Source: a virus. From it: a stretch of DNA of 58,548 nucleotides. The position numbers and the translations under genes were made by a program. The stretch is from IMG/VR virus record IMGVR_UViG_3300010392_000784, one strand, 5' to 3'. Below the pieces are notes generated by a model. That model ran no database searches. It was not told the origin of the DNA and was given only the letters and a program-made list of their open reading frames with translations. How positions within the stretch are numbered: position 1 is the first letter of the stretch; every line of letters begins with the position of its first letter. This document shows positions 8,083 through 36,837 of the stretch, piece after piece.

Positions 8083-8707
8083 GACGGTCACCGGCTCGAT
8101 CAAGAGCTGGGTCAACCATTCGTCCATCCCCGTCGAAGAGATCGTACCCGAAGCGGAGGCGTTGATTTTTCAGCGCCTCCGTTCGATCAAGATGCAGAAG
8201 CTCTCGAGCGGCACGCTGGCATCCGGGGACAGTTCCATCGACATTTCCGCGCTGCGCTTCCTGTCGCCGCGCATGCTCAAATTCTACGGCACCCACAGCT
8301 ACGCGCCGACCTTCTACCAGCTCGAGCTGTTCGAAGAGCAGCGGCTCTACGACGCCACGACCGCGCCGCCGACCCTGCTGGAAGGCTCGCCAACGTCCTT
8401 CACCCACGATCGCTCGACGATCTACTTCAACGTCAAGGCCAACGAGACCCACTATTACCGGCTCTGGTACTATGAACGCCCCGAGCCGCTGTCGGATTCG
8501 AACGACACCAACCTTCTGACCGACGACTACCCGCACATCCTGCGGCAGGCCTGCATGTCGCTCGCCTTCGAATACCGGAAGGACGAGGGACGATCGGACA
8601 AGGCCTTGCAGAAGATGGCCGCTTACATCGACCAGGCGATGGTCGAGAGCGACATGGCCTTCGAGGGCAGCGAATACCAGCTCTATTGGGAGCCGACTTA
8701 TGGCTGA
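8048..8707 (+). CDS. Virion structural protein, possible head-tail adaptor (219 aa)
   Basis: Position between the head genes and the tail genes; G/C-ending codons. Confidence 0.45.
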   Translation: MAMTWTSLTGAKTVTGSIKSWVNHSSIPVEEIVPEAEALIFQRLRSIKMQKLSSGTLASGDSSIDISALRFLSPRMLKFYGTHSYAPTFYQLELFEEQRLYDATTAPPTLLEGSPTSFTHDRSTIYFNVKANETHYYRLWYYERPEPLSDSNDTNLLTDDYPHILRQACMSLAFEYRKDEGRSDKALQKMAAYIDQAMVESDMAFEGSEYQLYWEPTYG

Positions 8708-15292: not shown

Positions 15293-18200
15293 ATGGGAAC
15301 CGCCTGGGATCTACCCGAAGGCTTCGTCTACGAAAGCGACATCGCAACCCCGGACCCTTCGACCGAGAAGGCGGCGCCGGCATGGGCGTTGCCGGAAGGC
15401 TTCGTCTACGAGAGCGAGTTGAAGGCCAAAGCGCCGGCGCCGACGGCGACCGCCACCACGCCAGAGACTGAAACCGGCCCGGGCTTCACCGACTATCTGA
15501 AAGAGATCGGGGGGCAGCTTTATTCCGGCGGCGCCGGCACGGTCGCTTCCGCTCTGAAAGGCGTCGGCGCTGCGGACGTTGTGCCGAAGAACGTTATTGA
15601 GGAGACCGACCGCGACCTTCGCCGCGTCAAGGACATGACGGACGAAGAATTCGGCGCGTTCAGGTCTAAAATAATCAAGAAACTCGGTGTGAAATCTCTG
15701 CCGGTGCAGGCCGCTGCGTTCGGGCTGCGCAAGGGGATCATCAAGAAGCCGGAGGAACTGGACTCCTACAAGGGCTGGAAAGACCGGTTCACCACCACCC
15801 TGGAAAAATCGCCTGTTTTCATGGCTGGCGAGGCGATTTCCAAGCACATCGAAAACGATGTAGCCAAGGATCCGAGGTTCAAAGACTCGTGGACGCGAGC
15901 CTTTGCGTCCGGGGCCGGGTCAGCGATCCCGTATTTCGCGCTTGGCGCTTTGTCTGGCGGCGTCGGCACAGGCATTGGTCTCGGCTTGGGTATCGAGGCG
16001 CAGGGCGGCGAGGCGATAGACCGGGCGAGAGCGAAGAAAGCAACGCTCGAGCAGGTGCTCGAAGCGGCGCGGATTTCCAGTATCATCGGCGGAACCGAAC
16101 AGTTGCCGATGGAGGTCATCTTCGAGCGGTTTCCGCTTCTGCGCGCGATCAAGCCGGCGTGGAAGAAGATCATCGCTCAGGGCGCGACGGAAGCGGTTCA
16201 GGAAGGAACCCAGCAAATCTGGCAAAACAGCGTTGCCAAGCTGGTTTACGACCCGAAGGCCGACATCATCGATTGGGACGTGCTGAAATCGATGATCGTT
16301 GGCGCGGGTGTCGGGTCTGGCCTCGGCGGCATTCATGAAGCGGGCAAGTACGCCGGCGAGCGAAACGCGCGGCGGAAGCTGAACGCCGAGGCGCGCAAGG
16401 CTGGCGTGGAAGGAACGACCTTCACCGGCGCGCCGGGCACCGAGGGCGAGGCCGGAGCGAGCGGCGGCGAGACGGGCGCCGGCCCGGCCCCGGGCGGGTA
16501 CGCGCCGTCGGAAGAGGAGATCTTCGCCCGCATGGCCGATATGGTCGGCGGGCCGGAGGTGGTCGACCGCTACCGCACCACGCCGAAGATGTTCGATCGG
16601 CTCTACCAGGAAGCGCGCAACGCGATCATCGCGGACGCGGCCGGCGGAGTGCCTGGCAGGGCTGCCCTGCCGGCGCCGTCCGGGACCGGAGAGACAGGCG
16701 GAACGGAAACGGCCGCTCCTGCCACAGAGACCGGCACAGGGGAGGCGGAAGCGGGGACGCCGGCACCGGAGGGCGCTGACACCGGTAAAACGGCTCCTGC
16801 GGCCTCTGTGAAGGCCGATGAAACGGACGACGAAGGCACCCGCACGCTGATCGCCGCCGGCTATACCCGAGACCAGATCGCCGACATGGGATCGATCGAG
16901 CGGGATGATGCCATCGCCGAGGCGCGCGATGCGGGCGTTGTGCCGATGCCGGAAGGGTTCGAACTCGACACGTCCGGCACGAAGACCAAGCCCAAGACGG
17001 TCGAGACCGAGGCGGATATCCGTCACGCCGAAACCCATGTCGAGACGAAGCCGACGGACGCGCAGAAGGAAGCCGGCAACTACAAGAAGGGGCACATCCG
17101 GTTCAAGGGGCTCGACATCACGATCGAGACGCCAAAGGGCGAGGAGCGCACCAACAAGGACCCGAACGGCCCGAAGTGGAGCGTGAAAGTTCCCGAGGCC
17201 TACGGCTACGTCAAGCGCACGCGCGGCGCGGACGAGGACCAGGTCGACGTTTATGTCGGGCCGAAGGTGGATTCCGACCGGGCCTATGTCGTCGACCAGC
17301 TCGACCTGAAGACCGGCAAGTTCGACGAGACCAAAGTCATCCTCGGCGCCGACAGCGCGAAGGCGGCCCGGGACATCTACGAAAAGGGGTTCTCCGATGG
17401 GCGCGGCGCGGAACGGATCGGCGCGGTATCTGAAACGGACATTGCGGGACTTCAGGAGTGGCTTCGAAGCGGAGACGCCCGGGCGCCATACTCTGGCGAA
17501 CTGGCTTCGCCGGCAGGGGAGAAAGGTGCTGGTGGAACTGCAGAAGAACCGGCCGCGACCCCGGCCGCCGAAGGATCCGAGCCTGCGACCACGGGAAAAG
17601 CCTCCGCGCCGGAAGTTTCGCCGGCGGAAGGATCTGTAGAAACCACCGAGAAGAAGCCGGCCGCCGCGCCAGCGCCGGAGACCGAGACCTGGCGCCGGAA
17701 CTTCATCGCGGCGCGCAAGGAAGCGAAGTCCCGCGGTATCGACATTGTGGGGAAGACCGGTGACGAACTGATTGCCGAGATCGAGGAGCAGGACCGGCAG
17801 AAGGCGGTCGAGGCCGGCAAGGATCTGCTGGGTAAACCGGTGAAGATGGGCGGCGAGGCGGCGGCTACCGCCGAAAATCCGAACCTCGGCCCGCTGTTCT
17901 CGCCACCGAAAGACGACTACGCAAAACTGGCAATCTTGAAGTCCGTGAGAGAAGGCCGCCGGCAATCCAAAGAGCCGCTGATGGCGCCTATAAATTGGCT
18001 GATCGGCGAAGGACTCGTGAACCCTGTCCGCAAAAGAGGAAAGCAATACCTGACGCTCTCGCCGAAGGGCGAGGAACTGCTGGCCAGCCTTGAGCCCGGC
18101 GTCGAAGGCGAGACAGCGGCAAAACCGGCAGAAGGCGGAACGGAGGCGAGCGCGGAGCCGGCCGTTACCCCCACCTCCGCACCTTCCCGCACCACACTTG

Positions 18201-21200
18201 AGAAAGGTGCGGAAAGCGAGACGGAGCCTGCGGACGATGAAAGCGGCATCCACACCGCATGGAATCGCATGGATAGATCGACGCGGTTGGCGGCGGTAAC
18301 GAAGGCGACCGGCAGGGAACCGGAGGCGCGCGCTGGAACGGGCGTCCATTTCCGTCCATGGACGGCGCTGAGCGACGAGATAAAGGGGCAGCTTCGCCCC
18401 GTGATGCGGGATTACCTCGAAAATGGTTCCGCTTCGCTTTATGCCGAGGTCACCCCCGAACCTCATGGTCAATTACCACAAGGTCAGGAGACGGAAGCGG
18501 CCAGCGAGCCCAAGACCACGACAGATCGTGATTTGTTCATTCGAAATTTCGGCGGCTCGTCAGATGTTGGCTGGTCAACCAGAGTCAAGGGGCCGAATGG
18601 AAAGTGGTATTCGTTGAGGATGGCTGGCAACGCCCGCGGGTTCTCCGTTTGGAAAACTCAAAAAACCCAAACGCTGGATAGCTCTCACTTTGCACCGCAG
18701 GGGCAGGAAGATTGGAATAGCACCCAAGCTGCGGAAGCCGCCGCCGAACATGCCGGCTTCTCCGTTCCTAAACCGGAACAGGAATCGGAAACGGCGGCCG
18801 CAGAAAAGCCGGCCGCCTCGCCGGCGGTCGCCACCCCAGAACCGCAGGAAACTGCGGCCACCGAAACCAAGCCTGCCGATCTGGTCTCCGCCTTCACCGA
18901 TTTCCTGATCGATCCCGCGAACTCGTTCAAGACGATCAACGAAGCGCGCCGGTTTGCCAAGGAGCATGGATTTGAGGCGAAGGCCGGGGCCGCGAGCGCC
19001 AAGGCGATGGAGGAGCAGCTTGAACTGGCTCTGGTGCTGGCCTCCCGCGAGTTGATCGCGAAGGCCGGCAGCCCCGCCGCCGCCTATGATGCGCTGGTGA
19101 GCCTCTACGAGCGCCAGCCAAAACTCGGCGCGCGCACATCCAAGAGCATGGCGGAGCAGGCCTACTCCACCCCGGCGCCGCTGGGATACCTGACGCAGGT
19201 GCTTGCCGGCGTCGGGCCGAAAACCGAAGTCTACGAGCCGACGGCCGGCAACGGCATGCTCTTGACCGGCGCCGACCCAACCCGCGTTCTTGCCAATGAG
19301 ATCGACGAGACACGGCGCGCCAACCTCAAGCGGCAGGGTTTCCAGCGCGTTACCGGCCATCGCCTGCCCGGTGTCCAGCCCGGCGCAGTCGGCGCCGAGG
19401 AAGCCGTCGACGTCGTCGTCATGAACCCGCCGTTCGGCCCGGTGAAGGGTGAGGACGGCAGGTCGGAGAAATTCAAGGTCGGCAAACTGACCACCACCCA
19501 GATCGACCACGCCATTGCGCTGAATGCCCTCGAGGCGATGCCGGACAACGGCCGGGCGGTGATGATCGTCGGCGCGATCGGCAAGACGATCCAGAGCCCG
19601 GAACAGCGCGCGGCGGCCTACAACGCGGCGGCCAAGCGGAAATTCTACTGGAACCTCTACAACCAGTACAACGTGGTCGACCACTTCACGGTCGACGGCG
19701 ACCTCTATGCAAAGCAGGGTGCTGCTTGGCCTGTCGATGTGATCGTGGTAGAAGGTCGAGGCAAGAGCTCCCTGCCGCTTCCAGCCATAGAGCCCCCGAA
19801 GGTTCTGAGCACATGGGACGAGCTGAAGGGGAAGATCGATGCAAGACCCGAAACAGTCGTATCTAAACCGGTTGGCAAACCGGCTGGCGAGCCTGCTTCA
19901 AGAGAACCGAAGCCGGTGGAAGGGCGAGGCCCGAGTGATCGAGGCCCAGTTGAGGGACAACGGCCTGATACCGGACGCGGTGACGATCAGGTACGAGAGC
20001 CCGTTCCAGTTCGCGACCGACCTCCTGATCGAGAACCCGGAAGTGTACGAGAACAGCAACCTGGGGCGTCTTATCGCGACCGACTGGAATCCGGACGAAA
20101 GCGAGACGGCGGGCGATCTGACCTCGCACCTGCTGCTGTAGCCGAGAACGAAGCGCCGGCCGCACAGGTCGAATACCGCCCCGCCTCGACGCAACCCACC
20201 CTCAAGACCTTTGTGCCGTCCGGCATGCGATCATCGGCCGAAAGCGCGCTGATGGCCGTGGAGGACGAGCGGGGCCCCATCGACCAATTCGTGGCAGACG
20301 AGCTTGCCTATGACGTCGGCAGGCTGTCGGAGTATTTCGGAGCCGAGCAGATCGACGCCATCGCCCTTGCAGTTCACCAGATCAAGCGCGGCAAGGCCTT
20401 CATCATCGGCGACCAGACCGGGACCGGCAAAGGTAGGGTCAACGCGGCGCTGCTCCGCTATGCCATGGTGCAGGGGAAAACCCCCGTGTTCTTCACCGAG
20501 AACACGACCCTCTACGGCGACATGGTCCGCGACCTGAACGACATCGGGATCCGCGAATATCTCGGCCGCGACGTCAACCCGTTCATGACGAACACGAAGG
20601 AATCCGTTCCGCTCGACGAGGAGGCGCTGGACTGGTTCGCCGACGACCAGGAGGCAAAGGTTGCCGGCGAGAAGCGGCCGCCCAAGCGCGGCAAGTTCTT
20701 CACGTCGCCAGACAAGGAAGTTGTTGAAGAGCAGATGCGCGAAATCGTGTCCGGCGGCCTCGGCGGCTACGACATCGTTTTCAGCACCTACACCCAGATG
20801 CAGACCACGAACGGGCAAGAGAACGCGCGCCGGAATTTCATGCGCAACATCATCAGCGACGCGATCGCCGCGTTCGATGAAAGCCACAACGCGTTCGGCG
20901 GAAGCAAGGGCGAGCGCGAGGCGAAGGACAAGATCGGCGGGCGCGCCGAAGTGATCCGGGAACTGACGCAAAAGGCCTATGGCGTCCTGTTCTCCTCCGC
21001 CACCTACGCCAAGCGCCCGGACGGCATGGATCTCTACGCGCGCACCGACCTGGGCGACGCCGTCGAAAATATCCAGGATCTCGGCCCGACGATCGAGGCC
21101 GGCGGCGTTCCGCTGCAGCAGATTATCGCTTCGATGCTCGCTGACGCCGGCCAGTACGTGCGCCGCGAGAAATCGTTCGAGGGCATCGAATACGCGATGG

Positions 21201-24200
21201 AGACGGCCGAAGTCGCGAAGGCGCCGTATGCGGGGTTTTCCGCGTCAATGAGAGCCGTCGTTGTCGCGGAGCAGATCCTGAAAAACGACCCGGCCTATGA
21301 GGCGTGGGTCAAAGACCTGGCCAAGGAAGGCGCAGCGGCGGCGATGGACACGGCTGTCGGCAACGCCGGCGTCACCTCGGCGAACTTCACATCGCTGATG
21401 CACAACGCCATCAGCCAGTTCCTTCTGGCCCTGAAGGCAGACCCGGCCGCGGATATGGCGATCGCCGCCATCAAGGCCGGAGAAAAGCCGGTGCTGACGG
21501 TCTCGAATACGAACGAGGGCTTCATCAAGGACTACGTCGACGACCACAACATCGAAGTCGGCGACCGCCTCGATATCACGTTCTCCGAGGTCGTGAAAAA
21601 CTATCTCAACCGCACGCGCCAGGTGTCAGTCAAGAAGCCGGACGCCGAACCGGGCGACAAGCCTGAACAACGGGTATTCCCGCTTTCGCGTGCCGGCCCG
21701 ACGACGCGCGCGGCCTACGAGGCCGCCCTTGCGGAAATCGACAAGATCGAGAACGTGCCGATCTCGCCCATCGACTACATGATCGACAAGATCGAGCGCG
21801 CCGGCTACTCCATGGGCGAGATTACCGGCCGGTCGACGCGGGTGCGCTACCACGCCGACGGCACCGCGACATTCGAGCGCCGCCCGCCGGTGATGAAGGA
21901 AGCGGCCGGCAAGCGATCGACGCTGAAACGGTTCAATTTCGGCGACCTCGACGGCATGCTGCTCAACCGGTCCGGCTCCACTGGTCTGTCTGCGCACGCC
22001 TCGTCTCTATTTTCAGACCAGAAGCCGCGGCACATGATCATCGTGCAGGCGGAGCCGAACATTGACACGCACATGCAGACGCTGGGCCGGGTCAACCGCG
22101 AAGGGCAGGTGGTTCTGCCGCGCTATTCCCAGCTTGTCGCCAACGTGCCGGCCGAGGTGCGCCCGGCGGCGATCCTGATGAAGAAAATGGCGAGCCTTGC
22201 CGCCAACACTACCGCCTCGCGCCGGTCTCCGCTGTCGTCGAACGCCGTGGATTTCATGAACAAGTACGGCGACAAGGTCGTCGATGCGGTGCTCGGTGAA
22301 AACGACCAGTGGAGCATCATCGCGCCCGAGACCGATGTGGATATCGCCCGCAAGGCAACCGGCCGCCTCGTGATGTTGCCGGTCGAAGAGCAGCAGGCAT
22401 TCCTGGACGAGGTCACCAGCCAGTACAACGAGCTGATCGAAAACCTGGACAAGATGGGGGAAAATGACCTCGAAGCGAAGTATGTCGACCTGAAAGCCGA
22501 ACTGATCGAGCGCGACGAGTTGAAGGCCGCCACCGGCGATTCCCCGTTCACGCAGGCTGTCTATATGGACAAGGTGTCGGCGCTGGCGCGAGGACAGTCC
22601 TATTCGGCGACGGAGCTCGTCGAGAAGATGCGCTCGACCCTCGGCCTTTCCGACGATCTCACACCGGCCCGGGTGATCGAGGAAGGCGTCCGTGTCGCCG
22701 GCTATGACGCGATGCAGGCGCGGATCAAGGAATTCACCGCCGCGCAAGACGCATGGCGCGAGGAACAGTTCAAGACCGCGAAGGACAAGGGCCGGGAATC
22801 GATCTCGAAGAAGGACCAGGCGGCGCGCGATCGCTTCTACGCCGTGTCGCGCACTGCGATCCCCGGCGCCGTGGTCGAGATCGACAACAACGGCGAGGCG
22901 GTCCCGGCTATCGTGCTCGAGGTTTCACGCTCCGGCAACGCCAAAATGCCGATGGCGCTGTCGGCCCACCGGCTCAAGCTGGCGCTGCCGACCGACGCGA
23001 AAGAGGTGTCGATCTCGTTCTCGAACGTGCTGCTCGAGGGCGACGCGGCCGGAGACGCCGACGCCGAGACCAAGAAGACCCGGATCAAGCGCGCTGGAAA
23101 CCAGTACCCGGCCAAGGATCTGATGGAGATGTTCGACGCCGCGGCGAAGACCGGGCGGCAGGAGCGCTACATCATCACCGGCAACGTGGTCTCTGGCTTC
23201 GACCTGGCCGGCGGGCGCGGGCAGGTGGTGCACTTCTCCGATGCGCAGGGCAACGTCAAGCCCGGCGTCCTGATGAACAAGCGGTACAACCACGAGAAGT
23301 TCATGGAGAAGCGGCCGGTCCGGTTCAAGACCGCGAGTCAGTTGCTCGAATTCATGGACAAGGTCTCACAGCCGGAAATCACCTCGACCGACAAGGTGAT
23401 CGACGTTCTCAAGGTGAGCGCGGACGAGATCGAGATCGAGACGCCGCGCGGGCGCAAGACGGCCGGCAAGTATTTCCTGGCGCCGGCGGTGCGCCGGGCG
23501 TCGGATGACGGGTTCGCCTCGGTCGGAAACCGCATGCGCTGGCGCGGGCCGCGCGCGCAGGCTCAGAAAGTGCTCGACGCCATGATCGGCGCTGGGGCGA
23601 TGTTCCAGACCACCTCCGATCAGGATGTGGCGATGGGCATTTTGAAAGGTGAGACGGCCGCTGCACCGGAGAACGCGAATAAGCCACCCCTGCCGCGCGG
23701 CTCCAAGCCGCAGACCTCCCGCATTCCTGGCATCACCGACCGCCTCGAAGCGACGAAGCAGGTTCGTAATGCCGAACTGACCAACGAGCTTTTCGACAAG
23801 GCTGACCGCATCCTGCCAGCTTCGGTGCGCCTGCGGCTGATCGACCGGTTCTCGGGCCGGGATGACGTCGAGATCTCCGGCGCCTACACCGATTTCATCA
23901 AGTCCGTCTGGATAGCGCTCTCCGTCACGAAGGACCCACACGCGACGCTGGGCCACGAGGCTATCCACGCGCTGCGCGATGTTGGCCTGTTCACACCGGC
24001 GGAATGGACGATCCTGTCACGCACCTCGGAGGCGCGCTGGTCGAACTGGCCCGGCATCCGCGACCACTACACCGGCTATTACGCCGGGCAGTTGTCTAGC
24101 CCGGAGGCCGTCGAGGAAGCGATCATCGAAGAAGGCGTCGCCTATGCCTTCGCCGAATACTTCACCACCGGCGAAATGCCGGAGGCGGGGTCGAGCGGCC

Positions 24201-27169
24201 GAGTGCAGGCGATCTTCGCCAAGATGAAGGAGTTCCTGGAACGCCTGCGGAACTGGCTTGCCGGCCATGGGTTCCAGAGCGTCGAAGACGTGTTCGAGCG
24301 GATCAAGACCGGCGGCGTGGCCGCGCGGGACAGAAGCGCAACGCAGGATACGGGAGAGACCGATCTCGACCGGGAACTGAACGCGGCGGTCGATGAAGCG
24401 CTGCGCGACCGCCCGCGCATGATGTTCGAGTTCGAGAACAAGGCCGGGGAAAAGCAATCGGTTTCCTTCACCCCGCCGGTCGACATGACGGCGCAGGCAT
24501 GGTCCGAGCGCAGCCGCCCGCTGCTTGTGCGCACCGCGAACGCGACCTGGAGCTTCCTTTCCGATCCGTCGGCCAATTCCACCGGAATCCGCCGCGTGCT
24601 TCAGGACCGGTTCATCGACTGGAAGAAGTACCAGCAGGCGATCGAGGAGAACGACGGCAGGGCGCTCGCCGAAAGCCTGGACGCCTACATGGCCGAAAGC
24701 CTCTATTACGGCCGCGCCGGCCAGCGCCTCGACGACTTCAGGAACGACAAGGCGCTGCCGCTGATCAAGGAAATTTCCGACCGGGGCCTGACCTACGAGC
24801 AGGTGAACGACTACCTCTACGCTCGCCACGCGCCGGAGCGGAACGCCTACATCGCCTCGATCAACGACAAGTTCCCAGACGGCGGGTCCGGCATGACCAA
24901 CCAGGAGGCGTTCGACGTCATCGAGCGGTTCGGCGACAAGGGCAAGCTCGAGGATCTGGCGGCGGTCGAGACGATGGCGCAGGAAATCCTCGACGATGCC
25001 CGCAAGACGCTGCTCAGCGGCGGCCTGATCAGCCGGGAGACCTATGACCAGTGGGCGGAGCAATACGAGGCCTACGTGCCGTTGCGCGGCTGGGATCAGG
25101 ACCCGGAGGTCGACACCGACCCGGTCCACATGAACGCCGGCCGCCGCTTCGATATCCGCGGCAAGGAAGCGCACCCGGCCTATGGGCGCCGGACGAAAGC
25201 CGATTCCCCGCTCGCCTACATCTTCGGCCAGGCGCAGCAGGCTATCCTGCGCTCGGAGAAGAACCGGGTCGGCAAGACCGTCCTGCGGCTGGTGCAGCAA
25301 AACCCGAACCCGAAAATCTGGGAGATCAACAAGCAGGAGAAGACGCGCCGCCTCAACAAGCTGACGGGCATGGTCGAAGAGGTCGCGGACCGGAACCACA
25401 AGCTGGACGACAACGTCTTCTCGGTGAAGGTCGGCGGCGTCGAGCACTACATTACGTTCCACGATCCGAACCTGGCTCTTGCAGTCAAGGGCATGGGCAC
25501 CGAGCAGATGAACGCGTTTTTCAAGACGCTGGCGACGCTCAACCGGTATCTGGCCTACATGAACACGGCGCTCAATCCCGAGTTCCTGATCTCGAACTTC
25601 ACCCGAGACCTGCAGACAGCGCTGATCCACCTGAGCAACGAGGACAAGAAGGGGCTGCGAACCGCGGTGGTCCGCGATCTGCGAAAGGCGCTCGCCGGGT
25701 CGTGGCGCGGGCTGGCCGGGCAGGAAGACACCGAATGGTCAAGGCACTTCCGCGAGTATGCCGATGCCGGCGGCAAGATCACGTTCTTCGGCCTGCAGGA
25801 CATCGAGACGATCAAAAAGCGGATGGACGCGGACTTCAGGAACCTGGACCCGAGCAAGCCGCGGCAGATGGCCAAGGCGTTTCTGGCGGTGAAGGACGGC
25901 GTCGACCGGGCGAACCAGTCGGTCGAGAACGCCATCCGCCTGTCGACCTATGTCAACCTGCGGCGCGCCGGCGTGTCGAAGGCGAAGGCAGCCAGCGCCG
26001 CCCGCGAGCTCACCGTGAACTTCAACAGGAAGGGAACGGCCGGTCTCGCGATCAACGCGCTCTACCTGTTCGCCAACGCATCGATCCAGGGCAGCATGCG
26101 CATGGTCCAGGCGATGAAGGGGAAAAGGGCGCGGCGCATTGCGTTTGCCATCGTCCTGTTCGGCGCGCTGATGGACATGCTGAACCGGTGGCTCGCCGAC
26201 GATGACGACGACGGCAAGAACCTCTACGACAAGATCCCCTACTACGTGAAAGAGCGGAACTTCATCCTGATGCTGCCGGGCGGCAAGGGTGAATTCCTCA
26301 AATTCCCGCTGCCCTACGGCTACAACGTCATGCAGGCGTTCGGCCAGCAGGTTTCGGCCGCGATGTGGGGCGCTGAGGACACGCTCAAGGCGGCTACCAA
26401 CATTGTCACGACGGCCATGAACAGCTTCAACCCGATCGGCGGCGGCCCGACGATCTGGCACCAGATCTCGCCGACGTTCACCGACCCGGCGATCGACCTC
26501 CTGAGCAATCAGAACTGGTTCGGCGGCCCGATCTATCCGCACGTCTATGACCCGCGCCGGCCGCCGCCCGACAGCCAGCTCTATTTCAACAGCGCGCGCG
26601 AGCCGTCGAAGTGGATCACGAAAAAGATCAATGAGGCGTTCGGCGGCAACACGGTCCGCTCCTCTGGCCCGATGGATATCTCGCCGGAAACGCTCGACCA
26701 CATGTTCGACTTCTTCGCCGGCGGCGCCGGCATGTTCTGGGGCCGGGTCACCGATCTGCCGATGAAGATGCTTGCCGGCGAGGAAATCGAAACGAAGGAC
26801 ATCCCGTTCCTGCGCAAGGTCTATGGCGAGAAGGCAAAATATTGGGACAAGTCCCTCTATTACGAGATCTCCGACAGCGTGCTTCTGGTCGAAAAGGAGG
26901 TGAAAACCTTCCGCCAGGCCGGCGACCATGAAAAGTCCCGCGAGGTGGCGAAGACCTACGGCACCGAATACAGAATGATCAGCCTGGTCAAGGCGGCCGA
27001 GAACAAGTTGCGCCAGCTCCGCAAGCACAGAAACGCCGCGAAGGCGCTCACGGACCCGGAAAATCGGCGCAAACAACTTGATCGCATCGAGGATGCCATG
27101 CGAAGAGTACAACTCAAGGTCCGGCGCCGGTACTACGATCTCGATCGCCAGAGGCGCGCCGCGGAATAG
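15293..27169 (+). CDS. Giant polyvalent virion protein (3,958 aa): N6-adenine methylase + strawberry-notch-like SF2 helicase + zincin peptidase + other modules
   Basis: Single open frame with G/C-ending codons except 19839-20141. Motifs: VYEPTAGNGMLL and NPPF (19424-19435); GTGKG (20420-20434), DESH (20876-20887), FSSATYA, HMQTLGRVNREGQ; HEAIH (23954-23968). Gly-rich hydrophobic N-terminal segments and a C-terminal TM (~26125-26190). Sits in the T7 gp16 position. Confidence 0.8.
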   Translation: MGTAWDLPEGFVYESDIATPDPSTEKAAPAWALPEGFVYESELKAKAPAPTATATTPETETGPGFTDYLKEIGGQLYSGGAGTVASALKGVGAADVVPKNVIEETDRDLRRVKDMTDEEFGAFRSKIIKKLGVKSLPVQAAAFGLRKGIIKKPEELDSYKGWKDRFTTTLEKSPVFMAGEAISKHIENDVAKDPRFKDSWTRAFASGAGSAIPYFALGALSGGVGTGIGLGLGIEAQGGEAIDRARAKKATLEQVLEAARISSIIGGTEQLPMEVIFERFPLLRAIKPAWKKIIAQGATEAVQEGTQQIWQNSVAKLVYDPKADIIDWDVLKSMIVGAGVGSGLGGIHEAGKYAGERNARRKLNAEARKAGVEGTTFTGAPGTEGEAGASGGETGAGPAPGGYAPSEEEIFARMADMVGGPEVVDRYRTTPKMFDRLYQEARNAIIADAAGGVPGRAALPAPSGTGETGGTETAAPATETGTGEAEAGTPAPEGADTGKTAPAASVKADETDDEGTRTLIAAGYTRDQIADMGSIERDDAIAEARDAGVVPMPEGFELDTSGTKTKPKTVETEADIRHAETHVETKPTDAQKEAGNYKKGHIRFKGLDITIETPKGEERTNKDPNGPKWSVKVPEAYGYVKRTRGADEDQVDVYVGPKVDSDRAYVVDQLDLKTGKFDETKVILGADSAKAARDIYEKGFSDGRGAERIGAVSETDIAGLQEWLRSGDARAPYSGELASPAGEKGAGGTAEEPAATPAAEGSEPATTGKASAPEVSPAEGSVETTEKKPAAAPAPETETWRRNFIAARKEAKSRGIDIVGKTGDELIAEIEEQDRQKAVEAGKDLLGKPVKMGGEAAATAENPNLGPLFSPPKDDYAKLAILKSVREGRRQSKEPLMAPINWLIGEGLVNPVRKRGKQYLTLSPKGEELLASLEPGVEGETAAKPAEGGTEASAEPAVTPTSAPSRTTLEKGAESETEPADDESGIHTAWNRMDRSTRLAAVTKATGREPEARAGTGVHFRPWTALSDEIKGQLRPVMRDYLENGSASLYAEVTPEPHGQLPQGQETEAASEPKTTTDRDLFIRNFGGSSDVGWSTRVKGPNGKWYSLRMAGNARGFSVWKTQKTQTLDSSHFAPQGQEDWNSTQAAEAAAEHAGFSVPKPEQESETAAAEKPAASPAVATPEPQETAATETKPADLVSAFTDFLIDPANSFKTINEARRFAKEHGFEAKAGAASAKAMEEQLELALVLASRELIAKAGSPAAAYDALVSLYERQPKLGARTSKSMAEQAYSTPAPLGYLTQVLAGVGPKTEVYEPTAGNGMLLTGADPTRVLANEIDETRRANLKRQGFQRVTGHRLPGVQPGAVGAEEAVDVVVMNPPFGPVKGEDGRSEKFKVGKLTTTQIDHAIALNALEAMPDNGRAVMIVGAIGKTIQSPEQRAAAYNAAAKRKFYWNLYNQYNVVDHFTVDGDLYAKQGAAWPVDVIVVEGRGKSSLPLPAIEPPKVLSTWDELKGKIDARPETVVSKPVGKPAGEPASREPKPVEGRGPSDRGPVEGQRPDTGRGDDQVREPVPVRDRPPDREPGSVREQQPGASYRDRLESGRKRDGGRSDLAPAAVAENEAPAAQVEYRPASTQPTLKTFVPSGMRSSAESALMAVEDERGPIDQFVADELAYDVGRLSEYFGAEQIDAIALAVHQIKRGKAFIIGDQTGTGKGRVNAALLRYAMVQGKTPVFFTENTTLYGDMVRDLNDIGIREYLGRDVNPFMTNTKESVPLDEEALDWFADDQEAKVAGEKRPPKRGKFFTSPDKEVVEEQMREIVSGGLGGYDIVFSTYTQMQTTNGQENARRNFMRNIISDAIAAFDESHNAFGGSKGEREAKDKIGGRAEVIRELTQKAYGVLFSSATYAKRPDGMDLYARTDLGDAVENIQDLGPTIEAGGVPLQQIIASMLADAGQYVRREKSFEGIEYAMETAEVAKAPYAGFSASMRAVVVAEQILKNDPAYEAWVKDLAKEGAAAAMDTAVGNAGVTSANFTSLMHNAISQFLLALKADPAADMAIAAIKAGEKPVLTVSNTNEGFIKDYVDDHNIEVGDRLDITFSEVVKNYLNRTRQVSVKKPDAEPGDKPEQRVFPLSRAGPTTRAAYEAALAEIDKIENVPISPIDYMIDKIERAGYSMGEITGRSTRVRYHADGTATFERRPPVMKEAAGKRSTLKRFNFGDLDGMLLNRSGSTGLSAHASSLFSDQKPRHMIIVQAEPNIDTHMQTLGRVNREGQVVLPRYSQLVANVPAEVRPAAILMKKMASLAANTTASRRSPLSSNAVDFMNKYGDKVVDAVLGENDQWSIIAPETDVDIARKATGRLVMLPVEEQQAFLDEVTSQYNELIENLDKMGENDLEAKYVDLKAELIERDELKAATGDSPFTQAVYMDKVSALARGQSYSATELVEKMRSTLGLSDDLTPARVIEEGVRVAGYDAMQARIKEFTAAQDAWREEQFKTAKDKGRESISKKDQAARDRFYAVSRTAIPGAVVEIDNNGEAVPAIVLEVSRSGNAKMPMALSAHRLKLALPTDAKEVSISFSNVLLEGDAAGDADAETKKTRIKRAGNQYPAKDLMEMFDAAAKTGRQERYIITGNVVSGFDLAGGRGQVVHFSDAQGNVKPGVLMNKRYNHEKFMEKRPVRFKTASQLLEFMDKVSQPEITSTDKVIDVLKVSADEIEIETPRGRKTAGKYFLAPAVRRASDDGFASVGNRMRWRGPRAQAQKVLDAMIGAGAMFQTTSDQDVAMGILKGETAAAPENANKPPLPRGSKPQTSRIPGITDRLEATKQVRNAELTNELFDKADRILPASVRLRLIDRFSGRDDVEISGAYTDFIKSVWIALSVTKDPHATLGHEAIHALRDVGLFTPAEWTILSRTSEARWSNWPGIRDHYTGYYAGQLSSPEAVEEAIIEEGVAYAFAEYFTTGEMPEAGSSGRVQAIFAKMKEFLERLRNWLAGHGFQSVEDVFERIKTGGVAARDRSATQDTGETDLDRELNAAVDEALRDRPRMMFEFENKAGEKQSVSFTPPVDMTAQAWSERSRPLLVRTANATWSFLSDPSANSTGIRRVLQDRFIDWKKYQQAIEENDGRALAESLDAYMAESLYYGRAGQRLDDFRNDKALPLIKEISDRGLTYEQVNDYLYARHAPERNAYIASINDKFPDGGSGMTNQEAFDVIERFGDKGKLEDLAAVETMAQEILDDARKTLLSGGLISRETYDQWAEQYEAYVPLRGWDQDPEVDTDPVHMNAGRRFDIRGKEAHPAYGRRTKADSPLAYIFGQAQQAILRSEKNRVGKTVLRLVQQNPNPKIWEINKQEKTRRLNKLTGMVEEVADRNHKLDDNVFSVKVGGVEHYITFHDPNLALAVKGMGTEQMNAFFKTLATLNRYLAYMNTALNPEFLISNFTRDLQTALIHLSNEDKKGLRTAVVRDLRKALAGSWRGLAGQEDTEWSRHFREYADAGGKITFFGLQDIETIKKRMDADFRNLDPSKPRQMAKAFLAVKDGVDRANQSVENAIRLSTYVNLRRAGVSKAKAASAARELTVNFNRKGTAGLAINALYLFANASIQGSMRMVQAMKGKRARRIAFAIVLFGALMDMLNRWLADDDDDGKNLYDKIPYYVKERNFILMLPGGKGEFLKFPLPYGYNVMQAFGQQVSAAMWGAEDTLKAATNIVTTAMNSFNPIGGGPTIWHQISPTFTDPAIDLLSNQNWFGGPIYPHVYDPRRPPPDSQLYFNSAREPSKWITKKINEAFGGNTVRSSGPMDISPETLDHMFDFFAGGAGMFWGRVTDLPMKMLAGEEIETKDIPFLRKVYGEKAKYWDKSLYYEISDSVLLVEKEVKTFRQAGDHEKSREVAKTYGTEYRMISLVKAAENKLRQLRKHRNAAKALTDPENRRKQLDRIEDAMRRVQLKVRRRYYDLDRQRRAAE
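17060..17440 (+). other. Module in the giant ORF with an inorganic-pyrophosphatase-like motif string (approximate bounds)
   Basis: GLDITIETPKGEERTNKD...AYGYVKRTRGADEDQVDVYVG resembles the PPase IEIPKG / YGFIPQT / DGDPLDV pattern; weak. Confidence 0.3.
18460..18484. repeat. Degenerate (23/25) intragenic copy of the 25-bp palindrome
   Basis: ACCTCATGGTCAATTACCACAAGGT versus the consensus ACCTYATGGTCAWTGACCATRAGGT. Confidence 0.6.
18885..19835 (+). other. N6-adenine DNA methyltransferase module of the giant ORF (approximate bounds)
   Basis: Motif I EPTAGNG (~19235-19255) and motif IV NPPF (19424-19435); ends ...STWDELKGKID. Confidence 0.7.
19839..20141 (+). CDS. Nested +1-frame gene (100 aa, no recognised family) inside the methylase-helicase linker of the giant ORF
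   Basis: ATG with GAAGGGGAAG upstream; TGA four codons upstream in the same frame; own TAG. Hand count of third positions: 84/100 G/C in this frame versus 39/100 in the giant frame. Product has globular-type composition. Confidence 0.6.
   Translation: MQDPKQSYLNRLANRLASLLQENRSRWKGEARVIEAQLRDNGLIPDAVTIRYESPFQFATDLLIENPEVYENSNLGRLIATDWNPDESETAGDLTSHLLL
20150..22260 (+). other. SF2 helicase module (strawberry-notch-like) of the giant ORF (approximate bounds)
   Basis: Walker A GTGKG, DESH box, SAT motif, and motif VI-like QTLGRVNREGQ at ~22075-22105. Confidence 0.65.
23954..23968 (+). other. HExxH zincin active-site motif in the giant ORF
   Basis: LGHEAIHALRDVG. Confidence 0.55.
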
Positions 27170-29628: not shown

Positions 29629-30006
29629 ATGCCCGAATCCCCTCCCAATGGTATCCACTTCCTGCTCGGCGAGTTGAAGGGCGGACTCAGTGCGCTCAAG
29701 GAAACCGTCGAGGTCTCGTCTCGCCGATCGGCTGAGCATCACACCAAGGTGTTCGAGAGAGTCGACAATTTGACGGAGCGGATCGGCGCAGTAGAGCACC
29801 AGGTCAAGCACATGTCCGAGGTCGCCGAGACCGTGGAGAAGGTCAAAGATCGGCTGGACAAGATCACCACAGAACGCCGAGTTGACACTGCAAAGCGTGT
29901 CGGAGTGATCGCTGGAGTCGCGCTGACGTTCTCCCTGATAGGGAACGCCGCCTATCAGAAGACCGCTGCGGCAGCGACAGCAATCTTCCAGAAGCTTTTC
30001 GGGTGA
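29629..30006 (+). CDS. Coiled-coil protein with a C-terminal TM (125 aa), possible envelope-disruption component
   Basis: Helical charged N-terminal region; VGVIAGVALTFSLIGNAAY TM near the C-terminus. Confidence 0.5.
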   Translation: MPESPPNGIHFLLGELKGGLSALKETVEVSSRRSAEHHTKVFERVDNLTERIGAVEHQVKHMSEVAETVEKVKDRLDKITTERRVDTAKRVGVIAGVALTFSLIGNAAYQKTAAAATAIFQKLFG

Positions 30007-30329
30007 ACCCCATGCGAACCACCATCCTATGCCTGATAGCCTTCCTCACCCTCTCTGGGCCCGCTGAGGCCCATTCGTGGTACGATACGGAGTGCTGCAA
30101 CGAAAACGACTGCAAGCCCGTCAAGCTGCTCAGCATCAAGAACGGCGTCTATTCGTGGAGGTCATGGCGGAAGCCGCAGCATGTCCTCAGCATCCACATC
30201 GACGACAAGCGGGTAAGGCCGGCGCTCGATGGCGGGTTCCATGCCTGCGAAGCGCCATGGGCCGACACAAGCAAGCAGACGCCATCACCTGTCCGGGTCC
30301 ACTGCGTTTATATTGGGGCTGGGGGTTGA
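30003..30329 (+). CDS. Secreted Cys-rich protein (108 aa)
   Basis: Signal peptide TTILCLIAFLTLSGPAEA followed by HSWYDTECCNENDCKP; no lipobox. Confidence 0.55.
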   Translation: MNPMRTTILCLIAFLTLSGPAEAHSWYDTECCNENDCKPVKLLSIKNGVYSWRSWRKPQHVLSIHIDDKRVRPALDGGFHACEAPWADTSKQTPSPVRVHCVYIGAGG

Positions 30330-30340
30330 GCGCTAGAGCG

Positions 30341-30478
30341 TCATTCATTGTCCCATAGTTCCCATTTAATATTCCCGGCCATCGTGAGCATTCCGCATTT
30401 CAGGCACCGCCAAAAGGTCCGCCTGAACTCGTAGCTGCTCATCTTCCACGAATGTTTGCAACGCTTCCGTTCTCCCAT
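30341..30478 (-). CDS. Small zinc-ribbon-like protein (45 aa; below the ORF-track cutoff)
   Basis: MGERKRCKHSWKMSSYEFRRTFWRCLKCGMLTMAGNIKWELWDNE; GGAGG lies 10 nt upstream of the ATG; CxH...CxxC. Confidence 0.4.
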   Translation of the reverse strand: MGERKRCKHSWKMSSYEFRRTFWRCLKCGMLTMAGNIKWELWDNE

Positions 30479-30541
30479 CACAGTTCGACCTCCACGCGGG
30501 TCAGTTTCTCAGGCGGCTCCGTTTGAGTAGCGCCGCGGTTT

Positions 30542-30769
30542 TCATATCTGGCCTCCTGTGTCAGGGAGGCGGGTAAAGCGACCGTCAAGAAATTCCCACA
30601 GCGGTCGCACCCATGCCGGCCCCTCGCCGCCAACCTCTCGGTAGACAACGACTGGCTCCAAAGTTCCCTCGATCAACGCGTGACTTGCGATAATCTCGTA
30701 GGTGTTCTTGGTTTTTTCATGCCGCCAAATGGTCCCGTCGTGCCCGTCATACCCATCGTCGATTGTCAT
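30542..30769 (-). CDS. DUF1653-like protein (75 aa from ATG 30769; the track gives TTG 30790)
   Basis: AGGAGA lies 8 nt upstream of ATG 30769; ...WRHEKTKNTYEIIASHALIEGTLEPVVVYRE...WVRPLWEF. Confidence 0.6.
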   Translation of the reverse strand: MTIDDGYDGHDGTIWRHEKTKNTYEIIASHALIEGTLEPVVVYREVGGEGPAWVRPLWEFLDGRFTRLPDTGGQI

Positions 30770-30802
30770 GTCTGTGGTCTCCTGCTTCAATCTCCGCCTC
30801 AG

Positions 30803-30827
30803 ACCTCATGGTCATTGACCATAAGGT
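30803..30827. promoter_or_regulatory. 25-bp imperfect palindrome, copy 1 (ACCTCATGGTCATTGACCATAAGGT)
   Basis: Intergenic between the DHH stop and the DUF1653 RBS; near-identical copies at 46725 and 54696. Confidence 0.7.
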
Positions 30828-30840
30828 TCGAAGCCTGGTT

Positions 30841-31755: not shown

Positions 31756-31787
31756 TTCGATTTTCTCCTGTGGTTGATTTTCACGGC

Positions 31788-31955
31788 CTACAGCTTCTTC
31801 ACCAGCCGTTTGGTTGCCTTGTCGTAGATCCTGACCCGTCCGCTCCGATCCGTGCATGCGAACAGACCCCTGTCCTTCAGCCAATGGCATATGCGGGCCA
31901 TCTTCTCGTCGTCTTGCGGGCGGGGCTGGGCCGACTTGGCGCCTGGGCGTTTCAT
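31788..31955 (-). CDS. Small basic protein (55 aa; below the ORF-track cutoff)
   Basis: [55 protein letters not shown]; its ATG overlaps the frame-A methylase stop (ATGA). Confidence 0.5.
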   Translation of the reverse strand: MKRPGAKSAQPRPQDDEKMARICHWLKDRGLFACTDRSGRVRIYDKATKRLVKKL

Positions 31956-33699: not shown

Positions 33700-33709
33700 A
33701 AATCCCTCG

Positions 33710-35304: not shown

Positions 35305-35311
35305 GCCCTTT

Positions 35312-36824: not shown

Positions 36825-36837
36825 TTCGGTGATCTCC

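What the first reader, a model, noticed from the sequence alone, without database searches (positions are those of the whole stretch)
19839..20141. Discrete +1-frame gene nested exactly in the methylase-helicase linker of the 3,958-aa ORF
Seen: ORF 19839-20141 lies in the +1 frame of the 11.9-kb ORF. Its ATG is preceded by GAAGGGGAAG (19825-19834). There is an in-frame TGA only four codons upstream (19824-19826), and the ORF has its own TAG (20139-20141). I hand-counted third-codon positions over these 100 codons: 84/100 are G/C in the nested frame versus 39/100 in the giant-ORF frame. The giant frame is dominated by G/C-ending codons from 20142 onward and in general. The flip starts within a few nt of the ATG and ends at the TAG, so the compositional boundaries coincide with the ORF boundaries. 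The giant-frame translation here (ARPETVVSKPVGKPAGEPASREPKPVEGRGPSDRGPVEGQRPDTGRGDDQVREPVPVRDRPPDREPGSVREQQPG...) is the R/P/G/D/E-rich string expected when a high-GC3 gene is read as p3-p1-p2. The nested product (MQDPKQSYLNRLANRLASLLQENRSRWKGEARVIEAQLRDNGLIPDAVTIRYESPFQFATDLLIENPEVYENSNLGRLIATDWNPDESETAGDLTSHLLL) has ordinary globular composition. The segment fills exactly the gap between the end of the methylase module (...STWDELKGKID) and the start of the helicase module (AQVEYRPAS...). No start codon or RBS for the helicase part follows 20141, so the giant frame must be translated through it. Inference, three alternatives: (a) an overprinted gene expressed from an internal RBS, perhaps a regulator, chaperone or self-immunity factor for the polyvalent enzyme; (b) a captured small gene that fused two formerly separate genes; (c) a very recent compensated double frameshift.
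Basis: partly seen in the sequence, partly recalled or inferred. Interest (0 to 1): 0.85.

Follow-up and report, generated by a model that had tools for sequence, protein, structure and literature searches.

The report
Conserved gene hidden inside giant-protein linker
A complete 100-codon gene for a small, well-folded, previously undescribed protein lies in the +1 frame of the disordered linker between the DNA-methylase and helicase parts of a 3,958-residue phage protein. The same gene-in-gene arrangement recurs in distantly related phages and plasmids, so it is a real, old case of one DNA stretch encoding two proteins.

Summary
ORF 19839-20141 lies in the +1 frame of the 15293-27169 ORF. It carries the genome's normal codon-position GC signature (0.60/0.39/0.84), while the giant frame there reads 0.84/0.60/0.39. 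This is the only such reversal along the 11.9-kb ORF (z 6.4).

It is neither a chance ORF nor a frameshift artefact. The 100-aa product has full-length homologues (best E 1.6e-21, 51% identity). With 17 sequences it folds as a six-helix protein (pLDDT 94.4). It has no match in PDB, BFVD, Pfam, PHROGs, NCBIfam or PADLOC.

In 17 other independent loci I found a homologous or equivalent +1 ORF. These are metagenomic phage-like contigs, five cyanobacterial plasmids, a Thalassospira plasmid and Bacteroides phage BS-TP4. In each, the ORF starts with ATG straight after the methylase module, usually behind a Shine-Dalgarno-like run, and the giant frame stays open across it (joint chance 1e-20 to 1e-28). 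Six more distant relatives lack it and show no GC3 reversal.

The giant-frame reading is a disordered spacer (pLDDT 25-42).

Best reading: a conserved embedded gene translated from an internal start. Its alternative frame supplies the linker of a polyvalent methylase-helicase protein. Its function is unknown. I infer a dedicated partner of the methylase module.

The parts
15293..27169 (+). Giant ORF (3958 aa), a phage-type polyvalent protein. It contains InPase (aa 589-724), an N6-adenine methylase module (NPPF motif; conserved part ends at aa ~1515), Strawberry-notch-type SWI2/SNF2 ATPase domains (AAA_34 aa 1700-1976, Helicase_C_4 aa 2173-2334) and LPD38 (aa 3643-3840).
   Evidence: It lies between virion structural genes and the endolysin gene.
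19433..19837 (+). Conserved C-terminal end of the methylase module (giant frame), ending ...TWDELKGKI. The last codons double as the ribosome-binding region of the nested gene.
   Evidence: tblastn of this segment finds relatives at 30-69% identity, always ending just before the nested ATG.
19824..19826 (+). TGA in the +1 frame (inside the Leu-Lys codons cTGAag of the giant frame). It closes the nested frame four codons upstream of its ATG.
   Evidence: In most loci a +1-frame stop lies 0-5 codons before the ATG. In L010, L016, L018 and L020 the +1 frame is open further upstream.
19825..19834 (+). Shine-Dalgarno-like purine run GAAGGGGAAG, 4 nt before the ATG. It is encoded by the giant-frame codons for K-G-K.
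   Evidence: Equivalent runs (GAAGGAGAAG, GAAAGGAAAG, GGGAGG, GAGGA, AAGGAAG, AGGAG...) lie 5-10 nt before the ATG in the other loci, except Bacteroides phage BS-TP4. Spacing is similar to that of other genes of this phage.
19839..20141 (+). Nested gene (100 aa, pI 4.6, six predicted helices). It is a member of an uncharacterised small-protein family.
   Evidence: GC3 0.84. phmmer gave 18 hits, best E 1.6e-21 over the full length; two are spurious repeat proteins. AlphaFold2 pLDDT 94.4, pTM 0.85. No known family or fold.
19838..20152 (+). Giant-frame linker (105 codons, rich in R/P/G/D/E), read across the nested gene. It is predicted to be disordered and has no stop codon.
   Evidence: AlphaFold2 on the 666-aa giant-frame segment gave pLDDT 25-42 and no secondary structure for residues 283-387. 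The overlap is residues 280-381, and the flanks score 85-96. P(open by chance) is 0.08-0.19 here and 1e-20 to 1e-28 jointly over 17 loci.
20153..20632 (+). Conserved start of the Strawberry-notch helicase module (giant frame), beginning just before QVEYRPAS. It has no start codon of its own.

Best explanation
Bases 19839-20141 encode two proteins in two frames.

In the +1 frame they are a complete, independently initiated gene for a small acidic six-helix protein of a previously undescribed family. In the giant frame the same bases are read as a roughly 105-residue, intrinsically disordered spacer. That spacer joins the methylase module to the Strawberry-notch ATPase module of a virion-module polyvalent protein.

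Shown:
- Both frames are kept open, at the same site and in the same relative phase, in the window and 17 other independent loci from phages and plasmids of several phyla.
- The nested frame carries the normal codon-position signature, family-level sequence conservation and a confident fold.
- The giant-frame reading has none of these.
- The nested ATG is always present.
- Except in a Bacteroides phage, the ATG is preceded by an SD-like run formed by the codons of the conserved ...ELK(G/E)K end of the methylase module.

Inferred:
- The small protein is made by internal initiation on the long late mRNA, as Rz1 is made within Rz of phage lambda.
- Selection acts mainly on the nested protein. The giant frame is selected chiefly to stay stop-free and flexible, because the helicase part has no start of its own.
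- The linker reading most likely arose by overprinting on a pre-existing small gene. This is the model proposed for the spacer of the hepatitis B virus polymerase.

Functional guess (inference only, about 0.4): the small protein is a dedicated partner of the methylase(-helicase) anti-restriction module, acting as a regulator, inhibitor or assembly factor that binds it. This rests on three points. It travels with the methylase even where no helicase follows in the same gene. It is encoded within the gene of its presumed partner. Products of other embedded genes bind the product of their host gene.

The confidence given (0.85) is for the dual-coding, conserved embedded-gene statement, not for the functional guess.
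For: 1. Composition: GC by position 0.60/0.39/0.84 in the nested frame against 0.84/0.60/0.39 in the giant frame. This is the unique outlier in the ORF.

2. Homology: phmmer against 1.84 billion representatives gave 18 hits, 16 of them genuine. Most are about 100 aa and align end to end. The best is P0043 (E 1.6e-21, 51% identity).

3. Fold: pLDDT 94.4 and pTM 0.85 from a 17-sequence alignment. The giant-frame reading of the same DNA gives pLDDT 25-42.

4. Synteny and phase: in L004, L005-8, L009, L010, L011, L018, L019, L020/21 and L024 the homologue sits in the +1 frame of a continuous giant frame, between the methylase end and the helicase start.
- Equivalent +1 ORFs of 119-169 codons occur in plasmids of Acaryochloris, Chroococcidiopsis, Gloeobacter, Picosynechococcus, Leptolyngbya and Thalassospira, and in Bacteroides phage BS-TP4.
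- The two groups are related at profile level (hhalign probability 88.6%, E 2.6e-6; HMM hit to L015 E 6e-7).

5. Dual coding: the giant frame is stop-free across the nested gene in all 18 loci.
- The chance of that, given each nested gene's own codons, is 0.0003-0.74 per locus.
- Jointly it is 10^-27.7 (codon shuffle) or 10^-20.5 (synonymous redraw).
- In the 12 loci checked, the other four frames carry stops in most.

6. Substitutions: between the close pair L005 and L019, 81% of changes in the giant-only part fall on giant codon position 3 (115/142). In the overlap only 24% do (8/33). There the maximum is at nested position 3 (17/33). Fisher p = 1e-9.

7. Start context: ATG in all loci and an SD-like run 5-10 nt upstream. 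A +1-frame stop lies 0-5 codons upstream in most loci.

8. Negative controls: six more distant relatives (P. aeruginosa, Yersinia, Xanthomonas, Vogesella and Persicobacter plasmids, and an Acinetobacter phage contig) have no open +1 frame in the linker. Among those with a long fused linker, giant-frame GC3 stays at its flanking level in L025, L027 and L029.

9. Linker length tracks nested-ORF length (r = 0.94, 12 loci).

10. Precedents: embedded Rz1 in Rz (PMC6139136); out-of-frame genes-in-genes whose two products interact (bioRxiv 10.64898/2025.12.20.695498); the HBV spacer model (PMC8227390).
Against: - There is no expression evidence of any kind (Ribo-seq, proteomics) for either product.
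- The SD-like run is confounded with a conserved peptide motif of the giant protein, so its presence is not independent proof of initiation.
- Homology between the roughly 100-aa group and the 120-170-aa plasmid group rests on profile comparison only. For L001, L016, L017 and L028 it rests mainly on position, phase and a similar C-terminal motif.
- The loci are not phylogenetically independent, so the joint probabilities are upper bounds on significance.
- In the window/L018 pair, differences are spread evenly over the three positions (0.34/0.36/0.38). That pair alone does not show which frame is the more constrained.
- Between L005 and L019 the nested protein evolves faster than the flanking enzyme domains (13% aa differences against about 2%).
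- The proposed function has no direct support. No structural or sequence relative is known. Most family members are acidic (pI 4-5.3), which fits several roles.
Confidence: 0.85

Rival explanations
1. Compensated double frameshift or assembly error. The true protein would read the nested frame in phase with the giant frame, and two indels near 19835 and 20140 would have displaced it.
For: The coding signature sits in the +1 frame for exactly this segment. G-runs lie near 19829 and 20062.
Against: The same two-frame arrangement recurs in 17 other independently assembled loci. Their giant proteins are 30-62% identical to this one.

The nested product aligns end to end with family members from its own Met to its own stop. 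One member is free-standing.

A stop lies 0-5 codons before the ATG in most loci. The window is a closed k=127 short-read assembly.
Confidence: 0.01
2. Chance open frame plus a composition effect. A disordered R/P/G/D/E-rich linker would happen to leave the +1 frame open, with no second protein made.
For: Relatives also have G/P/E/R/S-rich linkers. In a 62% GC genome, +1 stretches of 80 or more codons are common: 15 occur in this ORF.
Against: Amino-acid composition does not explain giant-frame GC3 falling from 0.81 to 0.39.

The +1 ORFs are 142-169 codons long in 44-50% GC replicons. The +1 product has significant homologues and a confident fold.

Relatives that lack the ORF mostly keep normal GC3 in their linkers.
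Confidence: 0.01
3. Programmed +1 ribosomal frameshift. Ribosomes translating the methylase part would slip into the nested frame. This would give a truncated methylase carrying the small domain at its C-terminus, rather than a free small protein.
For: The nested frame starts immediately after the methylase module. In L016, L018 and L020 the +1 frame is open for 29-102 codons upstream of the ATG. In L022 the association is with the methylase rather than the helicase.
Against: In L005/L019 and L014 a +1-frame stop directly abuts the ATG. In the window, L004, L009, L011 and L015 it lies 4-5 codons upstream, which leaves little or no room for a shift site.

ATG is conserved in all loci, with an SD-like run in the non-Bacteroides ones. 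Homology starts at the Met. No conserved slippery motif or RNA structure was seen.
Confidence: 0.04
4. The nested gene is the only functional reading. The giant-frame read-through would be a tolerated accident with no need for a covalent methylase-helicase link, the helicase part being made separately.
For: Gene callers and RefSeq (Gloeobacter pGMOR1) sometimes start the helicase gene after the nested ORF. Persicobacter has separate methylase and helicase genes.
Against: In the window no start codon exists in the giant frame between the nested stop and the first conserved helicase motif.

The giant frame is stop-free across the nested gene in all 18 loci, against joint odds of 1e-20 or less. 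In L016 the giant frame is open throughout despite the annotation.
Confidence: 0.04

Closest known systems
Rz/Rz1 two-component spanin genes of phage lambda, embedded architecture (PMC6139136)
   Same: A complete gene with its own start and stop lies wholly inside a longer gene on the same strand, in the +1 frame. It is translated from an internal ribosome-binding site. In the spanin case the two products act together.
   Different: There is no sequence, fold or functional relation. Rz1 is a short outer-membrane lipoprotein within a 153-codon gene. Here a 100-170-codon soluble acidic helical protein lies in an interdomain linker of a 2,000-5,400-residue enzyme. The host-frame reading is a spacer rather than a functional domain. 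The arrangement is conserved across phages and plasmids of several phyla.
Spacer domain of the hepatitis B virus polymerase overlapping the preS/S surface gene (Pavesi model, reviewed in PMC8227390, section 8)
   Same: A tolerant, disordered spacer that links two enzymatic modules of a large protein is encoded in the alternative frame of another gene. The proposed origin is a small gene lying between two genes. A de novo frame born within it acts as a linker and creates a multidomain protein. That is the scenario the codon-use and disorder criteria favour here.
   Different: HBV is a eukaryotic reverse-transcribing virus, and the proteins are unrelated. In HBV the overlap extends into the RT domain. 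Here it is confined to the linker. Relatives with a fused methylase-helicase but no nested gene exist, so insertion into an existing linker is an equally open origin.
Polyvalent proteins with the DNA methylase-SWI2/SNF2 helicase dyad, archetype DarB of phage P1 (Iyer et al. 2017, PMC5512222)
   Same: The host gene is of this kind. It has an adenine-methylase module fused to an SF2/SWI2-SNF2 (Strawberry-notch type) ATPase, together with the phage-only InPase and LPD38 domains. It is encoded among virion genes.
   Different: That survey does not contain the words overlapping, linker or frameshift. No second gene inside these proteins appears to have been described. P1 DarB itself was too distant to be retrieved here.
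Intragenic out-of-frame 'genes-in-genes' slr0489/slr1079/slr1082 of Synechocystis (bioRxiv 10.64898/2025.12.20.695498)
   Same: These are long internal out-of-frame ORFs in bacterial genes. Both frames were shown to be translated, and the products interact.
   Different: The proteins are unrelated (membrane proteins with a spanin-like layout), the loci are chromosomal, and the ORFs are not in an interdomain linker.

Membership tests
Embedded out-of-frame gene (gene-within-gene, Rz/Rz1-type architecture) | Complete ORF with its own start and stop, wholly inside a longer ORF, same strand, different frame | tested here: met
   19839-20141 lies inside 15293-27169 in the +1 frame.
Embedded out-of-frame gene (gene-within-gene, Rz/Rz1-type architecture) | Both frames maintained open in relatives beyond chance | tested here: met
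   In 18 loci both frames are stop-free. Joint P for the giant frame is 1e-20 to 1e-28. In the 12 loci checked, the other four frames carry stops in most.
Embedded out-of-frame gene (gene-within-gene, Rz/Rz1-type architecture) | Embedded frame encodes a protein under selection (homologues, coding signature, fold) | tested here: met
   Full-length homologues at E 1.6e-21; GC3 0.73-0.84 in the nested frame in high-GC loci; pLDDT 94.4; substitution pattern in L005/L019.
Embedded out-of-frame gene (gene-within-gene, Rz/Rz1-type architecture) | Own translation initiation signal | tested here: inconclusive
   There is an ATG in all loci and an SD-like run 5-10 nt upstream in 17 of 18. The run is also the coding sequence of a conserved giant-frame motif, so sequence alone cannot prove use.
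Embedded out-of-frame gene (gene-within-gene, Rz/Rz1-type architecture) | Both products detected in cells | not testable with these tools
   No expression data were available.
Phage-type polyvalent protein with methylase-helicase dyad (Iyer et al. 2017) | Several unrelated enzymatic domains in one polypeptide, including an adenine methylase followed by an SF2/SWI2-SNF2 ATPase | tested here: met
   Pfam hits to InPase, AAA_34, Helicase_C_4 and LPD38. The NPPF methylase motif is conserved in the alignment. Homologues carry N6_Mtase hits.
Phage-type polyvalent protein with methylase-helicase dyad (Iyer et al. 2017) | Encoded by a phage or conjugative element, typically with virion or transfer genes | tested here: met
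   Portal, major head, virion structural, tail-fibre-like, endolysin and terminase genes are in the window. The genome is closed with a 127-nt overlap.
Programmed ribosomal frameshift site | Open path from the upstream frame into the shifted frame, with a conserved slippery sequence and/or stimulatory structure | tested here: not met
   A +1-frame stop lies 0-5 codons before the ATG in most loci and directly abuts it in L005/L019 and L014. No structure signal was found (z -0.8 to +0.9).
Any described protein family or fold for the nested product | Significant match to Pfam, PHROGs, NCBIfam, PADLOC, PDB sequences, PDB folds or BFVD folds | tested here: not met
   There were no hits above noise. 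AlphaFold DB of cellular proteins was not available.

The most novel reading that the evidence does not exclude
A whole clade of methylase-helicase polyvalent proteins of phages and plasmids owes its interdomain linker to overprinting on a small gene. That gene still encodes an obligate partner of the enzyme (regulator, inhibitor or assembly factor). One stretch of DNA would then supply both the tether that joins two anti-restriction modules and the protein that controls them. This would be a prokaryotic counterpart of the hepatitis B polymerase spacer/preS arrangement, maintained across Cyanobacteriota, Pseudomonadota and Bacteroidota elements.
Probability: 0.35. Interest if true: 0.85.

Novelty: new variant of a known kind. 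Interest (0 to 1): 0.74.

Why it matters
1. Long, deeply conserved, fully embedded out-of-frame genes are rare in bacteria and their elements, and gene finders miss them. Here RefSeq annotates only the giant CDS in five of the six plasmids carrying the arrangement and mis-splits the gene in the sixth. Metagenome callers report the small gene only when a contig end truncates the giant one.

2. It adds an unrecognised, confidently folded protein family with no known relatives to the methylase-helicase (DarB-like) anti-restriction module. That module's mechanism is still largely conjectural. A dedicated partner protein is a concrete handle for experiments.

3. It gives a clean natural example of how a disordered linker can be the by-product of another gene's sequence. 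It also offers a test case outside eukaryotic viruses for the idea that overprinting can fuse genes into multidomain proteins.

4. In practice, 'low-complexity linkers' with reversed codon-position GC in giant mobile-element proteins are worth screening for hidden genes.

Tried and rejected
- Word-indexed protein search with the 100-aa product found nothing. Only the exhaustive phmmer search found the family.
- tblastn of the nested product against GenBank phages and PLSDB plasmids gave no match. blastn of the region against phages gave no match.
- Foldseek against PDB and BFVD, PDB sequence profiles, Pfam, PHROGs, NCBIfam and PADLOC gave no informative hit.
- The promoter and terminator scan of 19000-20600 found nothing.
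- RNA folding round the nested start in five loci gave no signal.
- Pairwise identity of nested products against giant-frame linker peptides discriminates poorly, because the low-complexity linkers align by composition. I replaced it with phmmer all-against-all: 27 pairs at E<1e-3 in the nested frame against 10 in the giant frame.
- Two phmmer hits, P0056 and P0057, are repeat proteins and were discarded.
- Antisense ORFs 19863-20165 and 19898-20194 were considered and rejected as shadows. Their codon-position GC is not coding-like (0.86/0.43/0.61 and 0.46/0.60/0.85), and antisense frames carry stops in most relatives.
- Codon-position analysis of the window/L018 pair is saturated and uninformative about which frame dominates.
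Full report
**1. The observation**

The window is a closed phage genome. Its first 127 bases are repeated exactly at its end. It encodes portal, major head, virion structural, tail-fibre-like, endolysin and large terminase proteins.

ORF 15293-27169 (3958 aa) lies between the virion genes and the endolysin gene. It matches InPase, AAA_34, Helicase_C_4 (Strawberry notch) and LPD38. An adenine-methylase module with the NPPF motif is visible in alignment with relatives. It is therefore a phage-type polyvalent protein with the methylase-helicase dyad described by Iyer et al. (PMC5512222).

ORF 19839-20141 is in its +1 frame.

GC by codon position is 0.60/0.39/0.84 in the nested frame, and the giant ORF overall has 0.64/0.46/0.81. 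In the giant frame the segment reads 0.84/0.60/0.39. Over all 303-nt windows of the giant ORF this reversal is unique: 0.46 here against a maximum of 0.12 elsewhere, z 6.4.

The open +1 frame alone means little. Fifteen other +1 stretches of 80 or more codons occur, and none has coding-like composition.

**2. The nested frame encodes a real protein**

The fast word-indexed search found nothing. An exhaustive phmmer search of 1.84 billion representatives found 18 hits. Sixteen are genuine, and most are about 100 residues and align from Met to the C-terminal ...HLLL. The best is P0043 (100 aa, 51% identity, E 1.6e-21). Two hits are repeat proteins and were discarded.

With this 17-sequence alignment AlphaFold2 gives a six-helix model with mean pLDDT 94.4 and pTM 0.85. 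It has no Foldseek match in PDB or BFVD. It has no match to PDB sequences, Pfam, PHROGs, NCBIfam or PADLOC. Most of the family is acidic (pI about 4-5.3).

The giant-frame reading of the same DNA was modelled within a 666-residue segment with eight homologues. It is the one long low-confidence, structure-free stretch: residues 283-387 have pLDDT 25-42. It sits between well-modelled methylase and helicase domains with pLDDT 85-96.

**3. The arrangement is conserved**

The contigs that carry the family members show the same anatomy. In L004 (giant frame open for 3844 codons), L005-L008, L009, L018, L019 and L020/L021 the small ORF lies in the +1 frame of a continuous giant frame. It sits directly after the conserved W(D/E)xLK(G/E)K end of the methylase module and just before the QVxYxP start of the helicase module.

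Contigs found through the giant protein rather than through the small one also contain it:
- L010: HMM E 2.6e-13.
- L011: HMM E 2.2e-14.
- L024: HMM E 7.6e-6.

Plasmids of Acaryochloris, Chroococcidiopsis, Gloeobacter, Picosynechococcus, Leptolyngbya and Thalassospira, and Bacteroides phage BS-TP4, have +1 ORFs of 119-169 codons at the same place. These replicons are mostly only 45-54% GC. In the plasmids giant-frame GC3 falls sharply in the linker, for example 0.59 to 0.32 in Acaryochloris; in BS-TP4 it barely changes (0.40 to 0.36).

These longer versions are related to the 100-aa group at profile level (HMM hit to L015 E 6e-7; hhalign probability 88.6%, E 2.6e-6). They share a similar C-terminal motif.

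In L022 the nested ORF (HMM E 1.8e-4) lies in the disordered C-terminal tail of a Zeta-toxin-methylase protein that has no helicase downstream. The association is therefore with the methylase module.

Six more distant relatives serve as negative controls: P. aeruginosa, Yersinia, Xanthomonas, Vogesella and Persicobacter plasmids, and an Acinetobacter phage contig. Their +1 frame is interrupted, or the linker is short, or the genes are separate. Where a long fused linker exists (L025, L027, L029), giant-frame GC3 stays at its flanking level.

Linker length follows nested-ORF length (r = 0.94).

**4. Both frames are under selection**

Given each nested gene's own codons, the chance that the giant frame stays stop-free across it is 0.08-0.19 in the window and 0.0003-0.01 in the low-GC plasmids. 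Jointly over 17 loci it is 10^-27.7 (codon shuffle) or 10^-20.5 (synonymous redraw). These are upper bounds on significance, because the lineages are related.

In the 12 loci checked, the other four frames contain stops in most.

For the close pair L005/L019:
- In the giant-only part, 115 of 142 substitutions fall on giant codon position 3.
- In the overlap only 8 of 33 do, and the maximum (17) is at nested position 3. Fisher p = 1e-9.
- The nested protein differs at 14 of 109 residues and the giant-frame linker at 23 of 110.

For the more distant window/L018 pair the three positions differ equally (0.34/0.36/0.38). Flanking giant codons give 0.26/0.22/0.53. This fits double constraint but does not show which frame dominates.

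phmmer all-against-all detects 27 related pairs in the nested frame and 10 in the giant-frame linker, the latter only among close relatives.

**5. Expression (inferred)**

All 18 nested ORFs begin with ATG. In 17 of them an SD-like purine run lies 5-10 nt upstream. It is formed by the codons of the conserved ...ELK(G/E)K motif. The exception is the Bacteroides phage. From general knowledge, not tested here, Shine-Dalgarno pairing is little used in Bacteroidota. The spacing resembles that of other genes of this phage.

A +1-frame stop lies 0-5 codons before the ATG in most loci and abuts it in L005/L019 and L014. This argues against entry by frameshifting. No promoter, terminator or unusual RNA structure was found nearby.

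In the window the helicase part has no start codon of its own, so it can be made only as part of the giant protein.

**6. What it is and how it probably works**

The shown facts support a conserved embedded gene whose alternative frame provides the disordered spacer of the polyvalent protein. Internal initiation is the most economical account of expression.

On origin, the usual criteria are reviewed in PMC8227390: the de novo frame has atypical codon use and encodes disorder. These point to the linker reading as the younger frame, overprinted on a small gene. A free-standing family member with its own SD exists (L012). Relatives without the nested gene have ordinary linkers. This matches the model proposed for the hepatitis B polymerase spacer. 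Insertion of the small gene into an existing linker cannot be excluded.

Function is unknown. I infer, at about 0.4, a dedicated partner of the methylase(-helicase) module. The grounds are the strict linkage, the L022 case, and the precedent that embedded-gene products bind their host-gene products (PMC6139136; bioRxiv 10.64898/2025.12.20.695498).

**7. Novelty**

Embedded out-of-frame genes are a known kind (Rz1 in Rz; HBV P/S). I found no description of one inside polyvalent proteins. The defining survey does not mention overlap, linker or frameshift, and literature searches found nothing.

In five of the six plasmids carrying the arrangement, RefSeq annotates only the giant CDS. In Gloeobacter it annotates the nested ORF as hypothetical and truncates the giant gene, although the giant frame is open.

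I rate it a new variant of a known kind: a new protein family, a new host-gene class, an overlap confined to a linker, and wide conservation across phages and plasmids.

**8. Verdict**

Interest is 0.74.

Noticed in passing
window 1-127 and 58422-58548: There is an exact 127-nt direct repeat at the two ends of the window. It is the signature of a circularly closed short-read assembly (k = 127). The window is therefore a complete phage genome of about 58.4 kb.
   Followed up: partly
window 35667-37406 (-): This 579-aa ORF combines a ParB-like nuclease/partition domain (aa ~174-364) with a DNA methyltransferase domain (aa ~400-562). It is a second methylase in the same phage.
   Followed up: no
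window 53465-53541 (-): A single tRNA-Pro (anticodon TGG) gene.
   Followed up: no
L016 (Gloeobacter morelensis plasmid pGMOR1, NZ_CP063846.1) 1297-5061: RefSeq annotates the +1 nested ORF as hypothetical protein WP_230844304.1 and starts the Strawberry-notch gene at an internal ATG overlapping its stop. The methylase part is left without a listed CDS. Yet the giant frame is open from 1297 to the end of the locus. This is probably a mis-split annotation of the same gene-in-gene arrangement.
   Followed up: partly
L022 6001-8451 (GCA_002050365.1, MWYZ01000071.1): A Zeta-toxin + methylase protein (816 aa) has a ResIII helicase gene upstream and no helicase downstream. It still carries the nested +1 ORF (8009-8437) inside a 148-codon disordered C-terminal tail that ends 14 nt after the nested stop. 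Why the tail is kept open when nothing follows it is unexplained.
   Followed up: partly
L012 1092-1748 and L013 (GCA_031413205.1): This free-standing 218-aa member of the small-protein family has its own SD and a charged, Lys/Glu-rich C-terminal extension. It is not inside any longer ORF, and its neighbours are uncharacterised. P0052 (178 aa) has a similar extension.
   Followed up: partly
L021 (GCA_020054605.1, JAHZTR010379907.1) 795-2114: In this MAG contig the giant frame stops at 795, shortly after the nested gene, and is followed by a HAMP/guanylate-cyclase gene. The identical nested gene in L020 is followed by more than 1,350 codons of helicase. The MAG contig may be chimeric.
   Followed up: no
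window 30000-36000: GC drops to 0.58 and AT skew turns negative. This coincides with a switch to minus-strand genes and few confidently coding-like ORFs between 30330 and 35310.
   Followed up: no
window 15920-18472 (-): An 850-codon antisense open frame lies inside the giant gene. It was taken as a high-GC shadow ORF and not examined further.
   Followed up: no
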